Virus record (IMG/VR): IMGVR_UViG_3300029705_000040
Coordinates: 38,209 to 102,208 of that record
Length of the DNA stretch: 64,000 nucleotides
DNA from: a virus
Taxonomy: Duplodnaviria > Heunggongvirae > Uroviricota > Caudoviricetes
Reading direction: 5' to 3' (one strand)
Part shown: piece after piece, positions 3,054 to 17,165 of the stretch
How the letters are laid out: each line of letters opens with the position of its first letter
How positions within the stretch are numbered: position 1 is the first letter of the stretch
Program-made: the position numbers and the translations under genes
Notes under the pieces: model-generated
The model's input: only the letters and a program-made list of their open reading frames with translations
What the model was told of the DNA's origin: nothing
Databases searched by the model: none

Positions 3054-3145
3054 TGAGAGATTAAGCAAACGGCAAAGCTCAGACTAGAAATCTGGAAGTT
3101 ATGCGCATAACTAATTAATGTAGGTTCGAATCCTACATCTCTCAA
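3054..3145 (+). tRNA. Type II tRNA with anticodon AGA (A34; Ser UCN reader?) and A73 discriminator
   Basis: Acceptor TGAGAGA/TCTCTCA, anticodon stem TCAGA/TCTGG, loop CTAGAAA, long variable hairpin GTTATGCGCATAAC, T-arm TGTAGG-TTCGAAT-CCTACA. Confidence 0.5.
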
Positions 3146-3148
3146 GTT

Positions 3149-3224
3149 GGGGTAGTAGCTCAATTGTTAGAGTATCTGCCTTCCAAGCAGAATGTTGCGG
3201 GTTAGAGTCCCGTCTGCCCCTCCA
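3149..3224 (+). tRNA. tRNA-Gly (TCC)
   Basis: Acceptor GGGGTAG/CTGCCCC, D stem GCTC/GAGT, anticodon TCTGC-CTTCCAA-GCAGA, CCA encoded. Confidence 0.8.
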
Positions 3225-3256
3225 TTATTTTTTTTTTATTTATATAGTAAAAATAG

Positions 3257-3285
3257 TTGATTTAATAAGCATTTTATTATATAAT
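3257..3285 (+). promoter_or_regulatory. sigma70-like promoter TTGATT-N17-TATAAT (family copy 1)
   Basis: Exact 17-nt spacer between TTGATT 3257-3262 and TATAAT 3280-3285. Confidence 0.6.
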
Positions 3286-3553
3286 ATAATTAGTTAATAA
3301 GTACTATATTAATTACTCGCGATAATTATTTAGTACGTAACCACAGCTAGTGTACCTTACTTTTCTTATTTGGGCAATAGATAGTTACACAATTTAGTGG
3401 TGATATAAATATAGTAACAGCTAGTATTTCTTACTTTATTCCTGGGATCAGGGCCGAACTTTTAATTCGATATATAGGGATACCTTACGTTACAAACAAT
3501 TTAACATCTCAGCTATTAGGACTTACTTTTAATGCATTCAGGAGCCGGGTGTC

Positions 3554-3613
3554 GTTGGTTCGAGTCCAACCTCCCCTACCAATATATAGGGGAGTAGCGC
3601 AGTTGGTAGCGCA
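3554..3613 (+). pseudogene. tRNA fragments in permuted order (3' half followed 6 nt later by a 5' half)
   Basis: 3554-3581 = T-arm GTTGG-TTCGAGT-CCAAC + CTCCCCT-A-CCA. 3588-3613 = AGGGGAG-TA-GCGC-AGTTGGTA-GCGC-A (acceptor 5' strand complementary to the upstream 3' strand). No anticodon arm joins them. Confidence 0.4.
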
Positions 3614-3673
3614 CCGTATAATAGTTCTAAAATTAAAACGAATTTTTATATCTAAATGGAGGTTTTAAGATAT

Positions 3674-5755
3674 ATGATGAAAGATTTGTACAGAGATTAT
3701 TTATTTAGTAAAAACATTTTGGTTTGCGTTGATGCGAATAATACTAAACATGATGATGTTTCAGCATTTTCATCTTTATTTGCTATCGCGAAAAAGTATA
3801 ATATTAAGATTAACGCTGGTAAAAGACTAGCTGATCAAGAAATTCTCAGATATCTTGAGAAGCAAATTCCTGGTAAAGTTACCGAAGCTTTTTATCGTGG
3901 ATTCCCTGAGTCTGTAAAAAGATTGAGTCCTACAGAGTTGCTTTTTGATCAACTTCTTCATTACTTCGATACGTATGTTTGCGGTAATTTTGATGGTGAT
4001 GCAGCTCACTCTGTTTTCGAGGAAACTTTCGAAACTGTAGCTTTCAATGAAAAAACTGAGATTAAGAATTTTGATATTCTTACAGAAGAAGATGCTGAAA
4101 AAGTTTTGCTTGAAATGGCTAACAATTTGCTTGCTTCTTCTAGACCTCTCAGTCAAGCTGCTTATGATTTGATTAAAGAGCTTTCTATCGATAAAAAGTT
4201 AATTATTACTGATGGTATTGCTAGTAGAGATACTGCTATTAAGTTATTGCTTGATTTAGAAGATGCTATTTTTGCTAAATATATCCAATTAAGTGATATT
4301 CTTAAAGTTGTTGAGGAATTGTTGCATAACAAATATCCTGGGATGACTCTTAAAAAGCTTAATCTTAAAAATCAAGATAGAAAGTTTGTTACTAATATTC
4401 TTAACATTAAATTTGCTAGTGGTAAACTTTCTAAATTCCAAAAAGCACTTTGCTTCGAAAGAAGAGCTGATTGGAAAGGTTTGCTTCACCAAATTCATTA
4501 TAAAGCAAAGAATGCTGCTGCATCTGAATTTGTTAATGATATCCGCAATGCAGAGAAAAATCTTTCTGTAATGGCTGATTTTGAAAACCTTATGATTAAA
4601 GGTGAAGTTGTTGGGGCTGCTGCGGTTCTCGCGAATAATAAGGGTAGCGGTGCTATTCTTAGAAATCTCAACTATATTCTTTCCAGATGTGAAAGTGCCG
4701 CAGATGTAGCAGAAGTTGTTAAATTTATCAAATCAGATAACCCTATTCTTCTTTTCCAACTTATTATGCAGTATAAGAATTATGTGGAAGATAAATCCGC
4801 ACGTACATTTACTTTCACTAAATACTATAAGCTTAAGACTCACAGAGAAACTTATGTTGAGCAATCTGCTAGAAAGTCTTTTGTTGGTAAAGAAATAAGA
4901 GATGCTGTTGTTCCTGCACTTTGGGATAATGTAAGATCTATCTACAAAAATAAGTTAGGGAAAGTCTATATTGATGAGTCAATGAAAAATATAGCTGTAC
5001 CTATGCAAGAAACAACTGCAGAAATGGGTTTGGGTGTACTTCCTAAAGGTACCAGAATGCATATCCCTGAAGGCAAAGTTGTTCGCGCTTTCACTTATTG
5101 GGAAAAGGTTAATGATATTGATTTATCTGCTATCGGTGTAACTGCTGATGGAAAGAGCATTGAATTCTCATGGAGAAGTATGTATAACAGACAGTCTGAT
5201 GCAGTTTGCTTCTCTGGAGATCAAACCTGTGGTTATAATGGTGGTAGCGAATATTATGACTTTAATTTGGAAGCTATCAAACAAAAGTATCCTACTATGA
5301 AATATTTAGTAGTATGCAATAATGTTTATAGCAGAGTACCTTTTAGCAAATGCAACTGTAAAGCGGGCTATATGCTCAGAGATAAAGTACGTTCTGGTGA
5401 GGTTTGGGAACCTAAAACTGTAGAATCATCCTTTAAGATTACTGGTGATAGCACTTATAGTTATATGTTCGCTATTGATGTTGAAAAGAATGATTTTGTA
5501 TGGCTTAATATGTGTAAAGATAGTATGGCTAGAGTAGCTGGTGACTCAGACTTTACATTCCTTGCAAAATATATTGGTATGACCGAAATTCTCAACGTAT
5601 ATACTTTGTTTGAAATGATGGCTACCGAAATTGTTGATAATAAAGAAGAAGCTGATATTTTAGTAACTGATGATATTCTTGAACTTGGGGAAAACCAAGA
5701 ACAGGTAAAATCTACAGATACTGAAAAGCTTCTCAAATATTTGAATAATAAGTAA
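3674..5755 (+). CDS. Hypothetical protein, 693 aa
   Basis: Long ORF; GGAGG at 3658-3662 precedes ATG 3674; TAA stop; no motif recognised. Confidence 0.7.
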   Translation: MMKDLYRDYLFSKNILVCVDANNTKHDDVSAFSSLFAIAKKYNIKINAGKRLADQEILRYLEKQIPGKVTEAFYRGFPESVKRLSPTELLFDQLLHYFDTYVCGNFDGDAAHSVFEETFETVAFNEKTEIKNFDILTEEDAEKVLLEMANNLLASSRPLSQAAYDLIKELSIDKKLIITDGIASRDTAIKLLLDLEDAIFAKYIQLSDILKVVEELLHNKYPGMTLKKLNLKNQDRKFVTNILNIKFASGKLSKFQKALCFERRADWKGLLHQIHYKAKNAAASEFVNDIRNAEKNLSVMADFENLMIKGEVVGAAAVLANNKGSGAILRNLNYILSRCESAADVAEVVKFIKSDNPILLFQLIMQYKNYVEDKSARTFTFTKYYKLKTHRETYVEQSARKSFVGKEIRDAVVPALWDNVRSIYKNKLGKVYIDESMKNIAVPMQETTAEMGLGVLPKGTRMHIPEGKVVRAFTYWEKVNDIDLSAIGVTADGKSIEFSWRSMYNRQSDAVCFSGDQTCGYNGGSEYYDFNLEAIKQKYPTMKYLVVCNNVYSRVPFSKCNCKAGYMLRDKVRSGEVWEPKTVESSFKITGDSTYSYMFAIDVEKNDFVWLNMCKDSMARVAGDSDFTFLAKYIGMTEILNVYTLFEMMATEIVDNKEEADILVTDDILELGENQEQVKSTDTEKLLKYLNNK

Positions 5756-5859
5756 GATTATAGAAGCGAAAAGTTTTTTCATTTTCTCCTTTGTAAAAGC
5801 TGTTATTCAATGCGAGTAACAGCTTTTAATTTTACTTATAAGATAGTTAGCTAAATTAG

Positions 5860-15858: not shown

Positions 15859-15983
15859 GGCCATATGTGCAAATGATTAGAAATAACCAGTGATGGCTCC
15901 AGAGATGTTTTATGGTTGAACTCATATAATAAAAACCATTATCGCCTTTATAAGTAATGCACATTGCGAAAATGAGGCTACTG

Positions 15984-16059
15984 CGAGAGTTATATCAATT
16001 GGGAGATAAGCTGCCTTACAAGCAGAAGGTTACAGGTTCAAGTCCTGTACTCTCGACCA
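15984..16059 (+). tRNA. tRNA-Val (TAC)
   Basis: Acceptor CGAGAGT/ACTCTCG-A-CCA, D TATC/GATA, anticodon loop CTTACAA. Confidence 0.8.
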
Positions 16060-16410
16060 TTAGGAAAACTACAACGGGATAGGAGACCCCCGCTACAGAG
16101 ATAACCAATGCATTCGTTGAAAAATACGTGTCATCTAGAGTTGAGTTGGTGAGTGGGAGGGCACAGAGCTAAACGATAATATGTTAAAGTAAACTGTTGA
16201 TACTTATTATTTTATGCTCCGAGACAGTGTGGTCGCAAGACGTGACATCTTAAGTGCAGAGGTATGTGGATGTTGTAGCAGATTAGGGTTTAGATGCATC
16301 CGAGAATTGGGTTTGCCCTAATCAAGTATGGGGTTGCTGGTGTAACGTTAGCACGACAGATTGTGGCTCTGTAAGACTAAGTTAGATTCTTAGGCTTCCC
16401 ACCATTAAAT

Positions 16411-16497
16411 CGATGCCTAGCTCAGTAGGTTAGAGCGCACGCCTGATAAGCGTGAGGTGCTGGGTTCGACTCCCAGGGCATCGACCATTAAATATAA
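16411..16497 (+). tRNA. tRNA-Ile (GAT)
   Basis: Acceptor CGATGCC/GGCATCG-A-CCA, anticodon CACGC-CTGATAA-GCGTG. Confidence 0.85.
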
Positions 16498-16597
16498 AGA
16501 TTGTTTAGTTTCTGTGTTATACTTTTTATCAAACTTATACATAATATATATGTAGAAGATAATTCTTCTAAAATATTTTAAGTGAGGTATAAGAAAC

Positions 16598-16969
16598 ATG
16601 GACAACAAAAAAGAAACTCAAACTCAAGAAACATCATTTAGAGGAATTCCCATTCCTGAAATTGAAAAGAAGCATGATTATAAAGTAGCTGATTCTCAGA
16701 AAGTTATCGATAAGATAATGGCTATGTCTCCAGAAGAACAGAAAACAGTTACTCTTGAAAGCATCCATTACGAAGATAAAGAAATTAGCGAAGTAAAGCT
16801 CTCTACTGGTGATATTATTCCTGTAGAAGCTGCTATTGCACTTGCTGAAAGTAAATTATTAAATGGATTTAGAGCTGGTAGAAATGCTAGAGGCGACCGC
16901 ACTTTAAGAGCTACCCCTAATTATGCTGGTAAGGAAAAGAATTCTATCCACAAATTACCTGTATTCTGA
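16598..16969 (+). CDS. Hypothetical protein, 123 aa
   Basis: ORF with GAGG RBS; TGA stop. Confidence 0.65.
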   Translation: MDNKKETQTQETSFRGIPIPEIEKKHDYKVADSQKVIDKIMAMSPEEQKTVTLESIHYEDKEISEVKLSTGDIIPVEAAIALAESKLLNGFRAGRNARGDRTLRATPNYAGKEKNSIHKLPVF

Positions 16970-17012
16970 GATGAAAGGCTAGAGGAATATAATTTCTCTA
17001 GTTTACATATAA

Positions 17013-17089
17013 GCCTTCGTGGCTCAACTGGTTAGAGCGACCGGTTCATACCCGGTAGATTGGGAGTTCAAGTCTCTCCGAAGGCACCA
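17013..17089 (+). tRNA. tRNA-Met (CAT), elongator-like
   Basis: Acceptor GCCTTCG/CGAAGGC-A-CCA, anticodon ACCGG-TTCATAC-CCGGT. Confidence 0.8.
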
Positions 17090-17165
17090 GCAGGTATAGT
17101 GTAACGGATTAGCACATCAGACTACGGATCTGATAATATGGGTTCGAATCCTATTACCTGTACCA
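17090..17165 (+). tRNA. Second tRNA-Arg-like (ACG; loop CTACGGA)
   Basis: Acceptor GCAGGTA/TACCTGT-A-CCA, anticodon TCAGA-CTACGGA-TCTGA; directly abuts the previous tRNA. Confidence 0.6.

What the first reader, a model, noticed from the sequence alone, without database searches (positions are those of the whole stretch)
3054..17165. Five tRNAs carry A at wobble position 34 (AGA, AAG, AGT, ACG x2)
Hand-folding gives anticodon loops CTAGAAA (3054-3145, type II, A73), CTAAGGA (6567-6643, G37, A73), CTAGTAA (11646-11719), CTACGAA (8398-8474) and CTACGGA (17090-17165). In bacteria only tRNA-Arg(ACG) normally has A34 (deaminated to inosine by TadA). A34 tRNAs for Ser, Leu and Thr boxes are a eukaryote-like trait that is rare in bacteria and unexpected in a phage. 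If these are inosine-modified they would expand decoding. If not, they are unusual four-box readers. The phage also carries conventional isoacceptors (Ser-TGA, Leu-TAG), so these are extra.
Basis: seen in the sequence. Interest (0 to 1): 0.6.

Follow-up and report, generated by a model that had tools for sequence, protein, structure and literature searches.

The report
Phage tRNA array favouring A34 anticodons
A large, AT-rich phage carries real, conserved tRNA genes for serine, leucine, threonine and arginine that begin their anticodon with A. Reviews call this class of tRNA absent from phages, but it makes up about 1% of phage tRNAs in public data, so this is an unusually rich example of a known oddity and not a new kind of system.

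Summary
ARAGORN and the Rfam tRNA covariance model both place AGA, AAG, ACG, AGT and ACG at positions 34-36 of five tRNA genes. These sit in a + strand array of 28 tRNAs (463-17165) in a 32% GC jumbo-phage fragment.

The genes are not decayed copies. Related phages keep Thr(AGT), Leu(AAG), the AGA tRNA and Arg(ACG), with many compensatory stem changes. In this phage every purine-34 tRNA for a four-codon box is A34, except Gly (GCC), and no G34 partner exists. U-ending codons dominate these boxes (TCT 56%, CTT 59%, ACT 49%), while C-ending codons are rare.

No TadA-like deaminase was found in the window, its flanks or related loci. Only the Arg and Leu anticodon loops fit published TadA consensus motifs.

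Best reading:
- Arg(ACG) becomes I34 through the host TadA.
- Leu(AAG) does so only if the host TadA has widened specificity.
- Thr(AGU) and the AGA tRNA stay unmodified and read the most-used NNU codon by Watson-Crick pairing.

"Unexpected in a phage" holds only against the literature. In an anticodon-neutral IMG/VR sample, 7 of 640 phage tRNAs were non-Arg A34, and megaphage Lak-C1 has a Leu(AAG). Ser(AGA) is the rare one, and the window's copy has an atypical body (A73, no CCA).

The parts
3055..3144 (+). Long-variable-arm tRNA with anticodon AGA (loop CUAGAAA). It has A73 and no encoded CCA, is preceded by T at -1, and lies 4 nt upstream of Gly(TCC). It is labelled Ser from the anticodon only.
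   Evidence: ARAGORN 3054-3145. Rfam 41.3 bits at 3055-3144. MFE cloverleaf, z = -2.7. Orthologues next to Gly(tcc) in L164 (loop CUAGAAA) and L036 (loop CAUGAAA), with 9 of 16 pairs compensatory. The nearest tRNA bodies are a mix of Tyr, Ser and Leu.
6567..6643 (+). tRNA-Leu(AAG). It has a short variable loop (type I, 77 nt), loop CUAAGGA, C1-G72, A73 and an encoded CCA.
   Evidence: 52.8 bits. It is homologous to the type-I Leu(TAG) of L035, with an identical anticodon arm except T34/A34. 11 of 22 pairs are compensatory across 6 type-I Leu(NAG) tRNAs. Its nearest bodies are all Leu.
8398..8473 (+). tRNA-Arg(ACG) copy 1: loop CUACGAA, G73, CCA.
   Evidence: 49.2 bits. The loop equals the E. 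coli TadA consensus YUACGAA (PMC11472039).
11646..11720 (+). tRNA-Thr(AGT): loop CUAGUAA, G1-C72, C2-G71, U73, CCA, 60% GC.
   Evidence: 70.4 bits; z = -3.3. The same backbone with AGT occurs in L036, L160 and L161, with four different fully paired anticodon stems.
17090..17165 (+). tRNA-Arg(ACG) copy 2: loop CUACGGA, A73, CCA.
   Evidence: (62.8 bits).
463..559 (+). tRNA-Ser(TGA), the U34 partner for the UCN box (G73, CCA).
7985..8066 (+). tRNA-Leu(TAG), the U34 partner for the CUN box.
   Evidence: found by ARAGORN only; below the Rfam gathering score.
11481..11565 (+). tRNA-Thr(TGT), the U34 partner for the ACN box, with an unusually long (about 13 nt) variable region.
   Evidence: (43.6 bits).
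463..17165 (+). The whole tRNA array: 28 genes in the window, continuing upstream of it. No G34 tRNA is present for Ser-UCN, Leu-CUN, Thr-ACN or Arg-CGN. Gly has GCC.
23207..24214 (+). Context only: polynucleotide-kinase-like P-loop kinase.
   Evidence: Pfam AAA_33, 4.6e-23. PHROG polynucleotide kinase, 3e-17.
27342..28304 (+). Context only: metallophosphoesterase.
   Evidence: Pfam Metallophos. PHROG phosphoesterase families.
46231..47460 (+). Context only: RNA ligase. Together with the kinase and phosphoesterase it forms a possible tRNA-repair set.
   Evidence: Pfam RNA_ligase, 1.7e-17. PHROG RNA ligase, 3.3e-58.

Best explanation
These are functional phage tRNA genes. This phage lineage uses A instead of G as the purine at wobble position 34 in four-codon boxes.

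The phage is AT-rich. In each of these boxes its most-used codon ends in U and its least-used codon ends in C. An A34 tRNA pairs with the U-ending codon by a Watson-Crick pair. The accompanying U34 tRNA covers the A- and G-ending codons. Because all four codons of such a box encode the same amino acid, any extra wobbling by A34 is harmless.

The modification state probably differs between tRNAs:
- The two Arg(ACG) tRNAs have the canonical TadA loop, and the host TadA most likely converts them to ICG.
- Leu(AAG) (loop CUAAGGA) would be deaminated only if the host TadA has the widened Streptococcus/Oenococcus-type specificity.
- Thr(AGU) and the AGA tRNA do not match any known TadA motif. They most likely work with unmodified A34, like Mycoplasma tRNA-Thr(AGU).

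Shown here: the genes, their anticodons, their conservation and covariation, the absence of G34 partners, the codon usage, and the lack of a deaminase gene in the accessible DNA. Inferred: expression, charging, modification state and the fitness benefit.
For: - Anticodons agree between two methods.
- Selection on Thr(AGT): four lineages share identical acceptor, D and T arms and the loop YUAGUAA. All 5 anticodon-stem pairs are replaced by compensatory changes.
- Selection on the type-I Leu(NAG) body: 11 of 22 pairs are compensatory. Leu(AAG) also occurs in L036/L037, L038 and L166/L167, phages whose marker protein is 74%, 67% and 54% identical.
- Selection on the AGA tRNA: 9 of 16 pairs are compensatory, and it stays adjacent to Gly(tcc) in L164 (64% marker identity). 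Separate, Ser-like Ser(aga) genes occur in L160 and L161.
- Clade tally for the Ser/Leu/Thr four-codon boxes: A34 12, G34 2. For Gly: G34 3, A34 0.
- Codon usage over 83 ORFs: TCT 56% vs TCC 5%, CTT 59% vs CTC 13%, ACT 49% vs ACC 7%.
- Literature: four-fold-box ANN tRNAs expressed in E. coli are mature, unmodified, translationally active and neutral or beneficial. Natural Leu-AAG and Thr-AGT replace GNN in bacterial genera with 60-70% AT (bioRxiv 10.64898/2026.05.15.725136). Unmodified A34 reads mainly U. Mycoplasma Thr(AGU) is unmodified. O. oeni modifies only two of its four A34 tRNAs (PMC11066159). The TadA motifs are YUACGAA in E. coli and YUAMGRA in S. pyogenes (PMC11472039).
- No (H/C)(A/V)E...(P/S)CxxC deaminase motif in any frame of the window, nor in 218 kb of flanks and related loci.
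Against: - Codon usage does not predict which boxes get an A34 tRNA. Pro, Ala and Val are just as U-biased (59%, 63%, 51%), but the window has only U34 tRNAs, or none, for them.
- The two Arg(ACG) genes serve a little-used box: 128 CGN codons against 404 AGR. Supply therefore does not simply follow demand.
- No expression, charging or modification data exist.
- The host and its TadA are unknown. The only lead is that 46-49% identical homologues of the marker protein are labelled Lachnospiraceae.
- Only about 78 kb of a genome longer than 200 kb could be inspected for a deaminase.
- The AGA tRNA has A73, no CCA and a body that does not resemble Ser tRNAs. It may not be a serine tRNA at all.
Confidence: 0.5

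Rival explanations
1. Full inosine decoding. All A34 tRNAs (Ser, Leu, Thr, Arg) are deaminated to I34 by a relaxed-specificity deaminase. The enzyme is encoded either in the unseen part of the >200 kb phage genome or by a host with an expanded TadA. That would give eukaryote-like I34 + U34 decoding of four boxes.
For: The pattern of A34 in Thr/Ser/Leu/Arg with G34 in Gly is exactly the eukaryotic ADAT pattern, and Gly-ACC is universally avoided. I34 + U34 would cover all four codons without any host tRNA, which suits a phage carrying a near-complete tRNA set. TadA specificity has widened at least twice in Firmicutes (PMC11472039; PMC11066159). Only about 78 kb of the genome was examined.
Against: No cytidine-deaminase-fold motif was found in the window, its flanks or 218 kb of related loci, and there were no deaminase Pfam hits in the flanking called genes. 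No known bacterial TadA accepts the loops UAGU or UAGA. In E. coli, Ser-AGA, Pro-AGG and Thr-AGU stay unmodified. O. oeni leaves two of its four A34 tRNAs unmodified.
Confidence: 0.15
2. Defence evasion. The A34 isoacceptors, and the variable anticodon stems, are versions of tRNAs that host anticodon nucleases do not recognise. They keep phage translation running when host tRNAs are cleaved. Codon matching would then be secondary.
For: The window encodes an RNA ligase, a polynucleotide-kinase-like protein and a metallophosphoesterase. This is the T4-style toolkit for repairing cleaved tRNAs. Thr(AGT) shows an odd pattern: its acceptor and T arms are identical and its D arm nearly so across four lineages, but the anticodon stem is replaced at all five pairs. 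That could reflect diversifying selection on the part a nuclease binds. The two Arg(ACG) genes are not explained by codon demand. The published hypothesis is that phage tRNAs escape VapC, PrrC and colicins D and E5 through anticodon-loop changes (PMC10264068).
Against: No nuclease known to me targets the G34 or U34 isoacceptors of Ser-UCN, Leu-CUN or Thr-ACN in a way that A34 would escape (my own knowledge, not tested). Other orthologous tRNAs in the same arrays show scattered or no changes instead of anticodon-stem-focused change. The Thr pattern rests on four sequences only. The host defence repertoire is unknown.
Confidence: 0.15
3. The AGA tRNA is not a serine tRNA. Its body (long variable arm, A73, Leu/Tyr-like D-loop, no CCA, possible extra T(-1):A73 pair) is charged by another synthetase such as LeuRS, or it has a role outside decoding. 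'Ser(AGA)' would then be a mislabel, and three of the four A34 boxes would remain.
For: The phage's bona fide Ser tRNAs have G73 and CCA. After its own orthologues, the nearest bodies of the AGA tRNA are Tyr 14, Ser 7 and Leu 3 of the top 25, with low scores. By contrast, the L161 Ser(aga) clusters cleanly with Ser. The L036 orthologue has the loop CAUGAAA, which lacks U33. LeuRS and SerRS both ignore the anticodon (established knowledge of bacterial identity rules).
Against: Reading UCU, the phage's main Ser codon (255 uses), as another amino acid would be very costly. Among long-arm Ser-anticodon tRNAs with an encoded CCA in my sample, 6 of 43 have A73, so A73 does not exclude Ser. Strong structural conservation with a standard 7-nt loop in the window and L164 points to a decoding tRNA.
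Confidence: 0.15
4. The A34 genes are mutational noise: recent G/T34-to-A point mutants or decaying copies in a redundant array, with no selected function.
For: Each is one mutation from a U34 or G34 tRNA. The window's Leu(AAG) arm equals the L035 Leu(TAG) arm except at position 34. The Thr(AGT) arm is otherwise found with T34 or C34 in 16 IMG/VR contigs. U34 partners exist, so loss of function would be tolerated.
Against: A34 is retained in several diverged lineages with compensatory changes around it. A34 outnumbers G34 12 to 2 in the clade. Four of the five encode CCA and score 49-70 bits.
Confidence: 0.05

Closest known systems
[quoted passage not shown]
   Same: These are A34 tRNAs in four-fold boxes that replace the G34 isoacceptor and coexist with a U34 partner. 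The genomes are 60-70% AT with a preference for U-ending codons. The Leu loop CUAAGGA fits the S. pyogenes TadA motif YUAMGRA.
   Different: Here the genes are phage-encoded. The window's Leu(AAG) has a short variable loop instead of the long arm of bacterial tRNA-Leu. A Ser-box AGA tRNA is present too. The modification state is unknown.
Mycoplasma capricolum tRNA-Thr(AGU) and TadA-less Mollicutes tRNA-Arg(ACG)
   Same: Unmodified A34 is used naturally in a very AT-rich system with a reduced tRNA set. Thr(AGU) reads ACU, ACC and ACG (PMC11066159; PMC3711424).
   Different: In Mollicutes this accompanies genome reduction. Here it sits in a phage array next to a U34 partner, and there is no evidence on modification.
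Eukaryotic ADAT2/3-dependent I34 tRNAs (Thr, Ala, Pro, Ser, Leu, Ile, Val, Arg)
   Same: The same choice of boxes appears for four of the eight (Thr, Ser, Leu, Arg), with the same exception (Gly keeps G34).
   Different: No ADAT or TadA gene was found. There is no A34 for Ala, Pro, Val or Ile in the window. There is no evolutionary link, so the resemblance is in decoding logic only.
A34 tRNAs in other phage genomes (IMG/VR contigs; Prevotella megaphage Lak-C1)
   Same: Leu(AAG), often of the same short-variable-loop design with loop CUAAGGA/CUAAGAA and A73, and Thr(AGT) recur in unrelated phage tRNA arrays, usually beside Arg(ACG).
   Different: Those arrays carry one or two such tRNAs. This lineage combines Leu, Thr and Ser-box A34 tRNAs with two Arg(ACG) genes and lacks G34 alternatives. 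Ser(AGA) was absent from both background samples.
Engineered tRNA(ANN) in E. coli (Raval et al. 2026 preprint; Schmitt et al. 2024)
   Same: These experiments show that four-fold-box ANN tRNAs, including Ser-AGA and Thr-AGU, mature, stay unmodified, decode and can be beneficial. This is the behaviour proposed here.
   Different: Those are laboratory constructs in E. coli. This would be a natural, evolutionarily maintained case.

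Membership tests
tRNA (Rfam RF00005) | Covariance-model score at or above the gathering threshold (29 bits) with a full-length cloverleaf | tested here: met
   41.3 (AGA), 52.8 (Leu), 49.2 (Arg 1), 70.4 (Thr) and 62.8 (Arg 2) bits, all spanning model positions 1-71.
tRNA (Rfam RF00005) | 7-nt anticodon loop with U33 and a purine at position 37 | tested here: met
   The loops are CUAGAAA, CUAAGGA, CUACGAA, CUAGUAA and CUACGGA.
tRNA (Rfam RF00005) | Stems maintained by compensatory substitutions in relatives | tested here: met
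   Thr: 5 pairs. AGA tRNA: 9 of 16 pairs. Type-I Leu: 11 of 22 pairs. This was not assessed for the two Arg(ACG) genes, because no clear orthologues were aligned.
Bacterial TadA substrates (I34 tRNAs) | Anticodon loop matching YUACGAA (E. coli type) or YUAMGRA (S. pyogenes type) | tested here: inconclusive
   Motifs are taken from PMC11472039. Arg 1 (CUACGAA) fits both motifs. Arg 2 (CUACGGA) and Leu (CUAAGGA) fit only the widened motif. Thr (CUAGUAA) and AGA (CUAGAAA) fit neither. So the feature is met for 2-3 of the 5 tRNAs.
Bacterial TadA substrates (I34 tRNAs) | A tRNA adenosine deaminase available in the infected cell | not testable with these tools
   None is encoded in the window, its flanks or related loci. 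The rest of the phage genome and the host genome could not be read.
Bacterial TadA substrates (I34 tRNAs) | Inosine actually present at position 34 | not testable with these tools
   This needs tRNA sequencing or an RNase T1 assay.
Natural G34-to-A34 replacement tRNAs of AT-rich bacteria (Leu-AAG, Thr-AGU) | Four-fold degenerate box, cognate GNN isoacceptor absent, UNN partner present | tested here: met
   There is no GGA, GAG, GGT or GCG tRNA in the window or its upstream extension. TGA, TAG and TGT are present.
Natural G34-to-A34 replacement tRNAs of AT-rich bacteria (Leu-AAG, Thr-AGU) | AT-rich genome with the U-ending codon preferred in that box | tested here: met
   GC is 31.8%. TCT is 56%, CTT 59% and ACT 49% of their boxes.
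tRNA-Ser (bacterial identity) for the AGA tRNA | Long variable arm | tested here: met
   There is a hairpin of about 5-6 bp in the variable region, conserved with covariation in L164 and L036.
tRNA-Ser (bacterial identity) for the AGA tRNA | G73 discriminator and a Ser-type acceptor and D arm | tested here: not met
   It has A73, an A2-U71 pair and no CCA. The phage's Ser(TGA) and Ser(GCT) have G73 and CCA. Its nearest bodies are not Ser. I therefore do not file it firmly as tRNA-Ser.
tRNA-Leu (bacterial) for the AAG tRNA | A73 and a Leu-type D-loop (A14 A15 .. G18 G19) | tested here: met
   It has A73 and the D-loop GAAUUGGCAUA, as in the phage's other Leu tRNAs. Of its 25 nearest bodies, 16 are Leu, including the top 8.
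tRNA-Leu (bacterial) for the AAG tRNA | Long variable arm (class II architecture) | tested here: not met
   It has a 5-nt variable loop (UUUUU) and is 77 nt long. The relatives L036, L038 and L166 have the long arm. Short-arm Leu tRNAs also occur in Bacillus phage P59 and in IMG/VR contigs. From established knowledge, E. coli LeuRS does not need the long arm, so Leu charging remains plausible.
Eukaryotic ADAT-type decoding | ADAT2/ADAT3 heterodimeric deaminase and A34 in all eight TAPSLIVR families | tested here: not met
   No deaminase was found. A34 appears in only four families.

The most novel reading that the evidence does not exclude
This phage lineage, or its still unidentified host, runs a widened wobble-inosine system. 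A deaminase with relaxed specificity converts A34 to I34 in Ser-, Leu-, Thr- and Arg-box tRNAs. That would be a prokaryotic or viral counterpart of eukaryotic ADAT decoding. A second unexcluded oddity is that the conserved AGA tRNA with A73 and a non-Ser body is charged with something other than serine.
Probability: 0.12. Interest if true: 0.75.

Novelty: new member of a known kind. Interest (0 to 1): 0.42.

Why it matters
Why tRNAs with an unmodified A at the wobble position are nearly absent from prokaryotes is an open question. Recent E. coli work shows such tRNAs are harmless or even helpful in four-codon boxes, which sharpens the puzzle.

This phage lineage shows that evolution does keep them, several at once, under purifying selection. 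It does so in an AT-rich genome where the U-ending codon dominates. The lineage also corrects a statement repeated in the literature that phages lack these genes.

It offers a natural test bed. One tRNA-sequencing experiment on this phage would show which A34 tRNAs are deaminated and which work as plain A. That result would also show how far bacterial TadA specificity stretches. If nothing unusual is found, the practical lesson is for annotation pipelines: A34 Leu and Thr tRNAs in phage arrays are real genes, not errors.

Tried and rejected
- Megablast of window 1-20000 against 50,697 GenBank phages: only short hits to conserved tRNAs and no relative.
- IMG/VR relatives of the 699-aa marker ORF: only 39-49% identical, with few tRNAs nearby, so uninformative.
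- Contigs carrying the identical marker protein (L029-L034): 99.96-100% identical to the window, so they give no variation. They did reveal 5 more tRNAs upstream.
- Exact scan of IMG/VR for the Thr(AGT) backbone: 0 hits.
- My one genome-contig scan, with the Thr T-arm pattern: it matched generic Thr, Met and Ile tRNAs across many phyla (CGT 36, TGT 22, GGT 3). It gave no host clue, and the single AGT hit is not a credible tRNA.
- BLAST of IMG/VR Thr(AGT) and Leu(AAG) tRNAs against GenBank phages: the nearest cultured homologues, Syn19 Thr and Bacillus phage P59 Leu, carry T34.
- Regex search for the cytidine/adenosine deaminase zinc motif: nothing in any of the six frames of the window, or in 218 kb of flanks and relatives.
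- PDB sequence search with the 359-aa PHROG 'nucleotidyltransferase' (35993-37072), to test whether it is a CCA-adding enzyme: no hit.
- Literature searches for phage Leu-AAG/Thr-AGT, or for a phage tRNA deaminase: nothing specific.
- The 'Ala(agc)' call in L162 has an irregular anticodon arm, so I did not count it as evidence.
- I considered that alternative stem registers might give other anticodons. I rejected this because the covariance model, ARAGORN and MFE folding all agree.

Full report
**1. The observation**

ARAGORN finds 28 tRNA genes in the window, all on the + strand between 463 and 17165. Five have A at position 34:
- Ser(aga) 3054-3145
- Leu(aag) 6567-6643
- Arg(acg) 8398-8473
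- Thr(agt) 11646-11720
- Arg(acg) 17090-17165

The Rfam tRNA covariance model scores all five above its 29-bit threshold: 41.3, 52.8, 49.2, 70.4 and 62.8 bits. Its alignments place the same bases in the anticodon loops: CUAGAAA, CUAAGGA, CUACGAA, CUAGUAA and CUACGGA. The ARAGORN cloverleaf drawings agree. Free-energy folding alone recovers the cloverleaf for the Thr, AGA and Leu tRNAs.

**2. What the DNA is**

The window is 31.8% GC with essentially all genes on one strand. It encodes:
- an RNA ligase (PHROG 3e-58)
- a polynucleotide-kinase-like protein
- a metallophosphoesterase
- a DNA methylase
- an HNH endonuclease
- FolD
- a NAPRTase-family enzyme
- a BspA-type leucine-rich-repeat protein

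No GenBank phage is similar at the DNA level. The same sequence (99.96-100% identical) occurs in several JGI metagenome assemblies. The marker protein is on contigs longer than 200 kb, so this is a jumbo phage. The array continues upstream of the window with Met, a second atypical 70-nt Leu(aag), His, Met and Leu(taa). Homologues of the 699-aa ORF inside the array, at 46-49% identity, are labelled Lachnospiraceae. That is a lead to the host group, not a demonstration.

**3. Are the A34 genes functional?**

Graded relatives of the marker ORF (81% to 54% identity) were traced to their contigs. They carry syntenic tRNA arrays. A scan for the Thr backbone added two more contigs.

*Thr(AGT).* It is present in four lineages (window, L036/L037, L160, L161). 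The acceptor and T arms are identical, the D arm is nearly so, and the loop is YUAGUAA. There are four different anticodon stems, and all five pairs are replaced by compensatory changes.

*Leu(AAG).* It is present in L036/L037, L038 and L166/L167 as a long-arm tRNA. In the window it is a short-variable-loop tRNA. Its closest homologue is the short-arm Leu(TAG) of L035, which has the same anticodon arm except at position 34. Across six short-arm Leu(NAG) genes, 11 of 22 pairs show compensatory change.

*The AGA tRNA.* It has orthologues in the same position, just upstream of Gly(tcc), in L164 (same loop) and L036 (loop CAUGAAA). Nine of 16 pairs are compensatory. L160 and L161 carry a different, clearly Ser-like Ser(aga).

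*Arg(ACG).* It is present in most lineages.

Across ten lineages, the Ser, Leu and Thr four-codon boxes hold 12 A34 and 2 G34 tRNAs. Gly holds 3 G34 and no A34. These are maintained genes, not decaying copies.

**4. How unusual is this?**

Two papers state that phages lack the ANN tRNAs that bacteria lack (PMC8007984; bioRxiv 10.64898/2026.05.15.725136). I tested this directly.

- An anticodon-neutral scan of IMG/VR (T-loop plus CCA) gave 640 tRNAs in 119 loci. Twenty have A34: Arg-ACG 13, Leu-AAG 4, Thr-AGT 2 and His-ATG 1. Ser-AGA was 0 of 31.
- A Thr-targeted scan found A34 in 10 of 81 matches, against 1 with G34.
- The published megaphage Lak-C1 has a Leu(aag).
- Many of these phage Leu(AAG) genes share the short-arm design and the loop CUAAGGA or CUAAGAA.

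A34 Leu and Thr tRNAs are therefore a recurrent, overlooked feature of phage arrays. At about 1.1% of tRNAs they are roughly four times the bacterial figure of 695 in 246,393. The window is still enriched: three non-Arg A34 among 28 gives P = 0.0035. Its Ser-box A34 tRNA is rare.

**5. Mechanism**

Codon usage over 83 ORFs shows that U-ending codons dominate every four-codon box and C-ending codons are scarce: TCT 56% vs TCC 5%, CTT 59% vs CTC 13%, ACT 49% vs ACC 7%. The phage has no G34 tRNA for these boxes, and each A34 tRNA has a U34 partner.

The simplest reading is that A34 gives a Watson-Crick reader for the commonest codon, in boxes where any extra wobble is synonymous. This matches the bacterial cases (AT-rich genera where Leu-AAG or Thr-AGT replace GNN). 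It also matches the E. coli experiments in which four-fold-box ANN tRNAs are active, unmodified and neutral or beneficial.

On modification, the published TadA motifs are YUACGAA (E. coli) and YUAMGRA (S. pyogenes).
- Arg 1 (CUACGAA) fits both motifs, and Arg 2 (CUACGGA) fits only the widened one.
- The Leu loop fits only the widened motif.
- The Thr and AGA loops fit neither.
- O. oeni modifies only two of its four A34 tRNAs, and Mycoplasma Thr(AGU) is unmodified.

No deaminase motif is present in the window or in 218 kb of flanks and related loci. I therefore expect a mixed state: ICG for Arg, A34 for Thr and the AGA tRNA, and a host-dependent outcome for Leu. All of this is inference. Nothing here measures expression, charging or modification.

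**6. What the best explanation does not cover**

- Pro, Ala and Val are as U-biased as the other boxes but have no A34 tRNA in the window.
- Two Arg(ACG) genes serve a box with only 128 codons, against 404 AGR codons.
- The Thr(AGT) anticodon stem turns over completely while the acceptor and T arms do not change at all. Other orthologous tRNAs do not show this pattern.
- Together with the RNA-repair genes, this keeps a defence-evasion reading alive (PMC10264068). It rests on four sequences and no known matching nuclease.
- The AGA tRNA lacks the features of the phage's own Ser tRNAs (G73, CCA). Its body is closest to a mix of Tyr, Ser and Leu tRNAs. Its amino-acid identity is therefore uncertain.

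**7. Comparison with known systems and verdict**

In function, this resembles the G34-to-A34 replacement seen in AT-rich Firmicutes and Mollicutes. It resembles eukaryotic ADAT decoding only by analogy. It qualifies as tRNA, and as a four-fold-box A34 replacement set, on every feature I could test. It does not qualify as an ADAT-like system. The TadA-substrate test is met for two or three of the five tRNAs.

It is a new, unusually complete member of a known kind. It has modest added value as a correction of the literature and as a natural test case for decoding by unmodified A34. Interest 0.42.

Noticed in passing
window 6355-6464 (+): A 110-nt tRNA-like element is found by Rfam only (35.1 bits) and not by ARAGORN. 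It has good acceptor, D and T arms. In place of a normal anticodon/variable region it has a poorly aligned stretch containing a second T-arm-like hairpin (UCCGGUUCGACUCCGGU). A similar sequence occurs in L162 and L163, where ARAGORN calls an undetermined tRNA ('???'). Its MFE z-score is only -0.2.
   Followed up: partly
window 11481-11565 (+): tRNA-Thr(TGT) is 85 nt long with a variable region of about 13 nt (CGCGAAAGCUUCG). That is unusual for a threonine tRNA. Rfam scores it at 43.6 bits.
   Followed up: no
window 6567-6643; L035:4180-4255; L038:16584-16660; L036:6280-6356; L159 (Bacillus phage P59) 3999-4153: Leucine tRNAs with a short variable loop (75-79 nt) instead of the bacterial long arm recur in this lineage (anticodons AAG, TAG, CAA). 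They also occur in unrelated IMG/VR phages and in a cultured Bacillus phage. They keep A73 and a Leu-type D-loop.
   Followed up: partly
window 11646-11720 versus L036:1033-1107, L160:2094-2168 (-), L161:1502-1578: Across four phage lineages the Thr(AGT) tRNA keeps its acceptor and T arms base-for-base identical, and its D arm nearly so. All five anticodon-stem pairs differ. This is a striking localisation of change, and I could not explain it.
   Followed up: partly
window 23207-24214, 27342-28304, 46231-47460: A polynucleotide-kinase-like protein, a metallophosphoesterase and an RNA ligase are encoded within 25 kb of each other. Together they look like a tRNA/RNA repair toolkit of the T4 PseT/Rnl type, and they hint that the host attacks tRNAs.
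   Followed up: partly
L029:2941-3010 (about 3.4 kb upstream of the window start): A second 'Leu(aag)' of only 70 nt: Rfam 48.6 bits, no CCA, a 4-bp anticodon stem and loop UUAAGAG. The covariance-model alignment is uncertain around the anticodon.
   Followed up: partly
window 8398-8473 and 17090-17165: Two quite different Arg(ACG) genes (G73 vs A73, A37 vs G37) serve a box with only 128 codons in 83 ORFs. The single Arg(TCT) serves the 359 AGA codons. tRNA copy number therefore does not track codon demand here.
   Followed up: no
whole window: Stop codon use in 83 long ORFs is TAA 56, TGA 25 and TAG 2. No suppressor tRNA was found, and ORF lengths look normal under the standard bacterial code.
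   Followed up: no
window 12012-12083 and 7985-8066: Glu(ttc) copy 2 and Leu(tag) are called by ARAGORN but fall below the Rfam gathering score. They are divergent or atypical tRNAs.
   Followed up: no
L007:16754-16827; L025:4893-4963; L048, L097, L053, L058: Unrelated IMG/VR phage contigs carry occasional A34 tRNAs for split boxes: Asn-ATT, His-ATG, Phe-AAA, Ser-ACT and Tyr-ATA. These would risk misreading if they wobble. They were not checked for being artefacts.
   Followed up: no
window 35993-37072 (+): A 359-aa ORF matches a PHROG 'nucleotidyltransferase' family (2e-11) but has no Pfam or PDB sequence hit. I wondered whether it is a CCA-adding enzyme, since the AGA tRNA lacks an encoded CCA. 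This is unresolved.
   Followed up: partly
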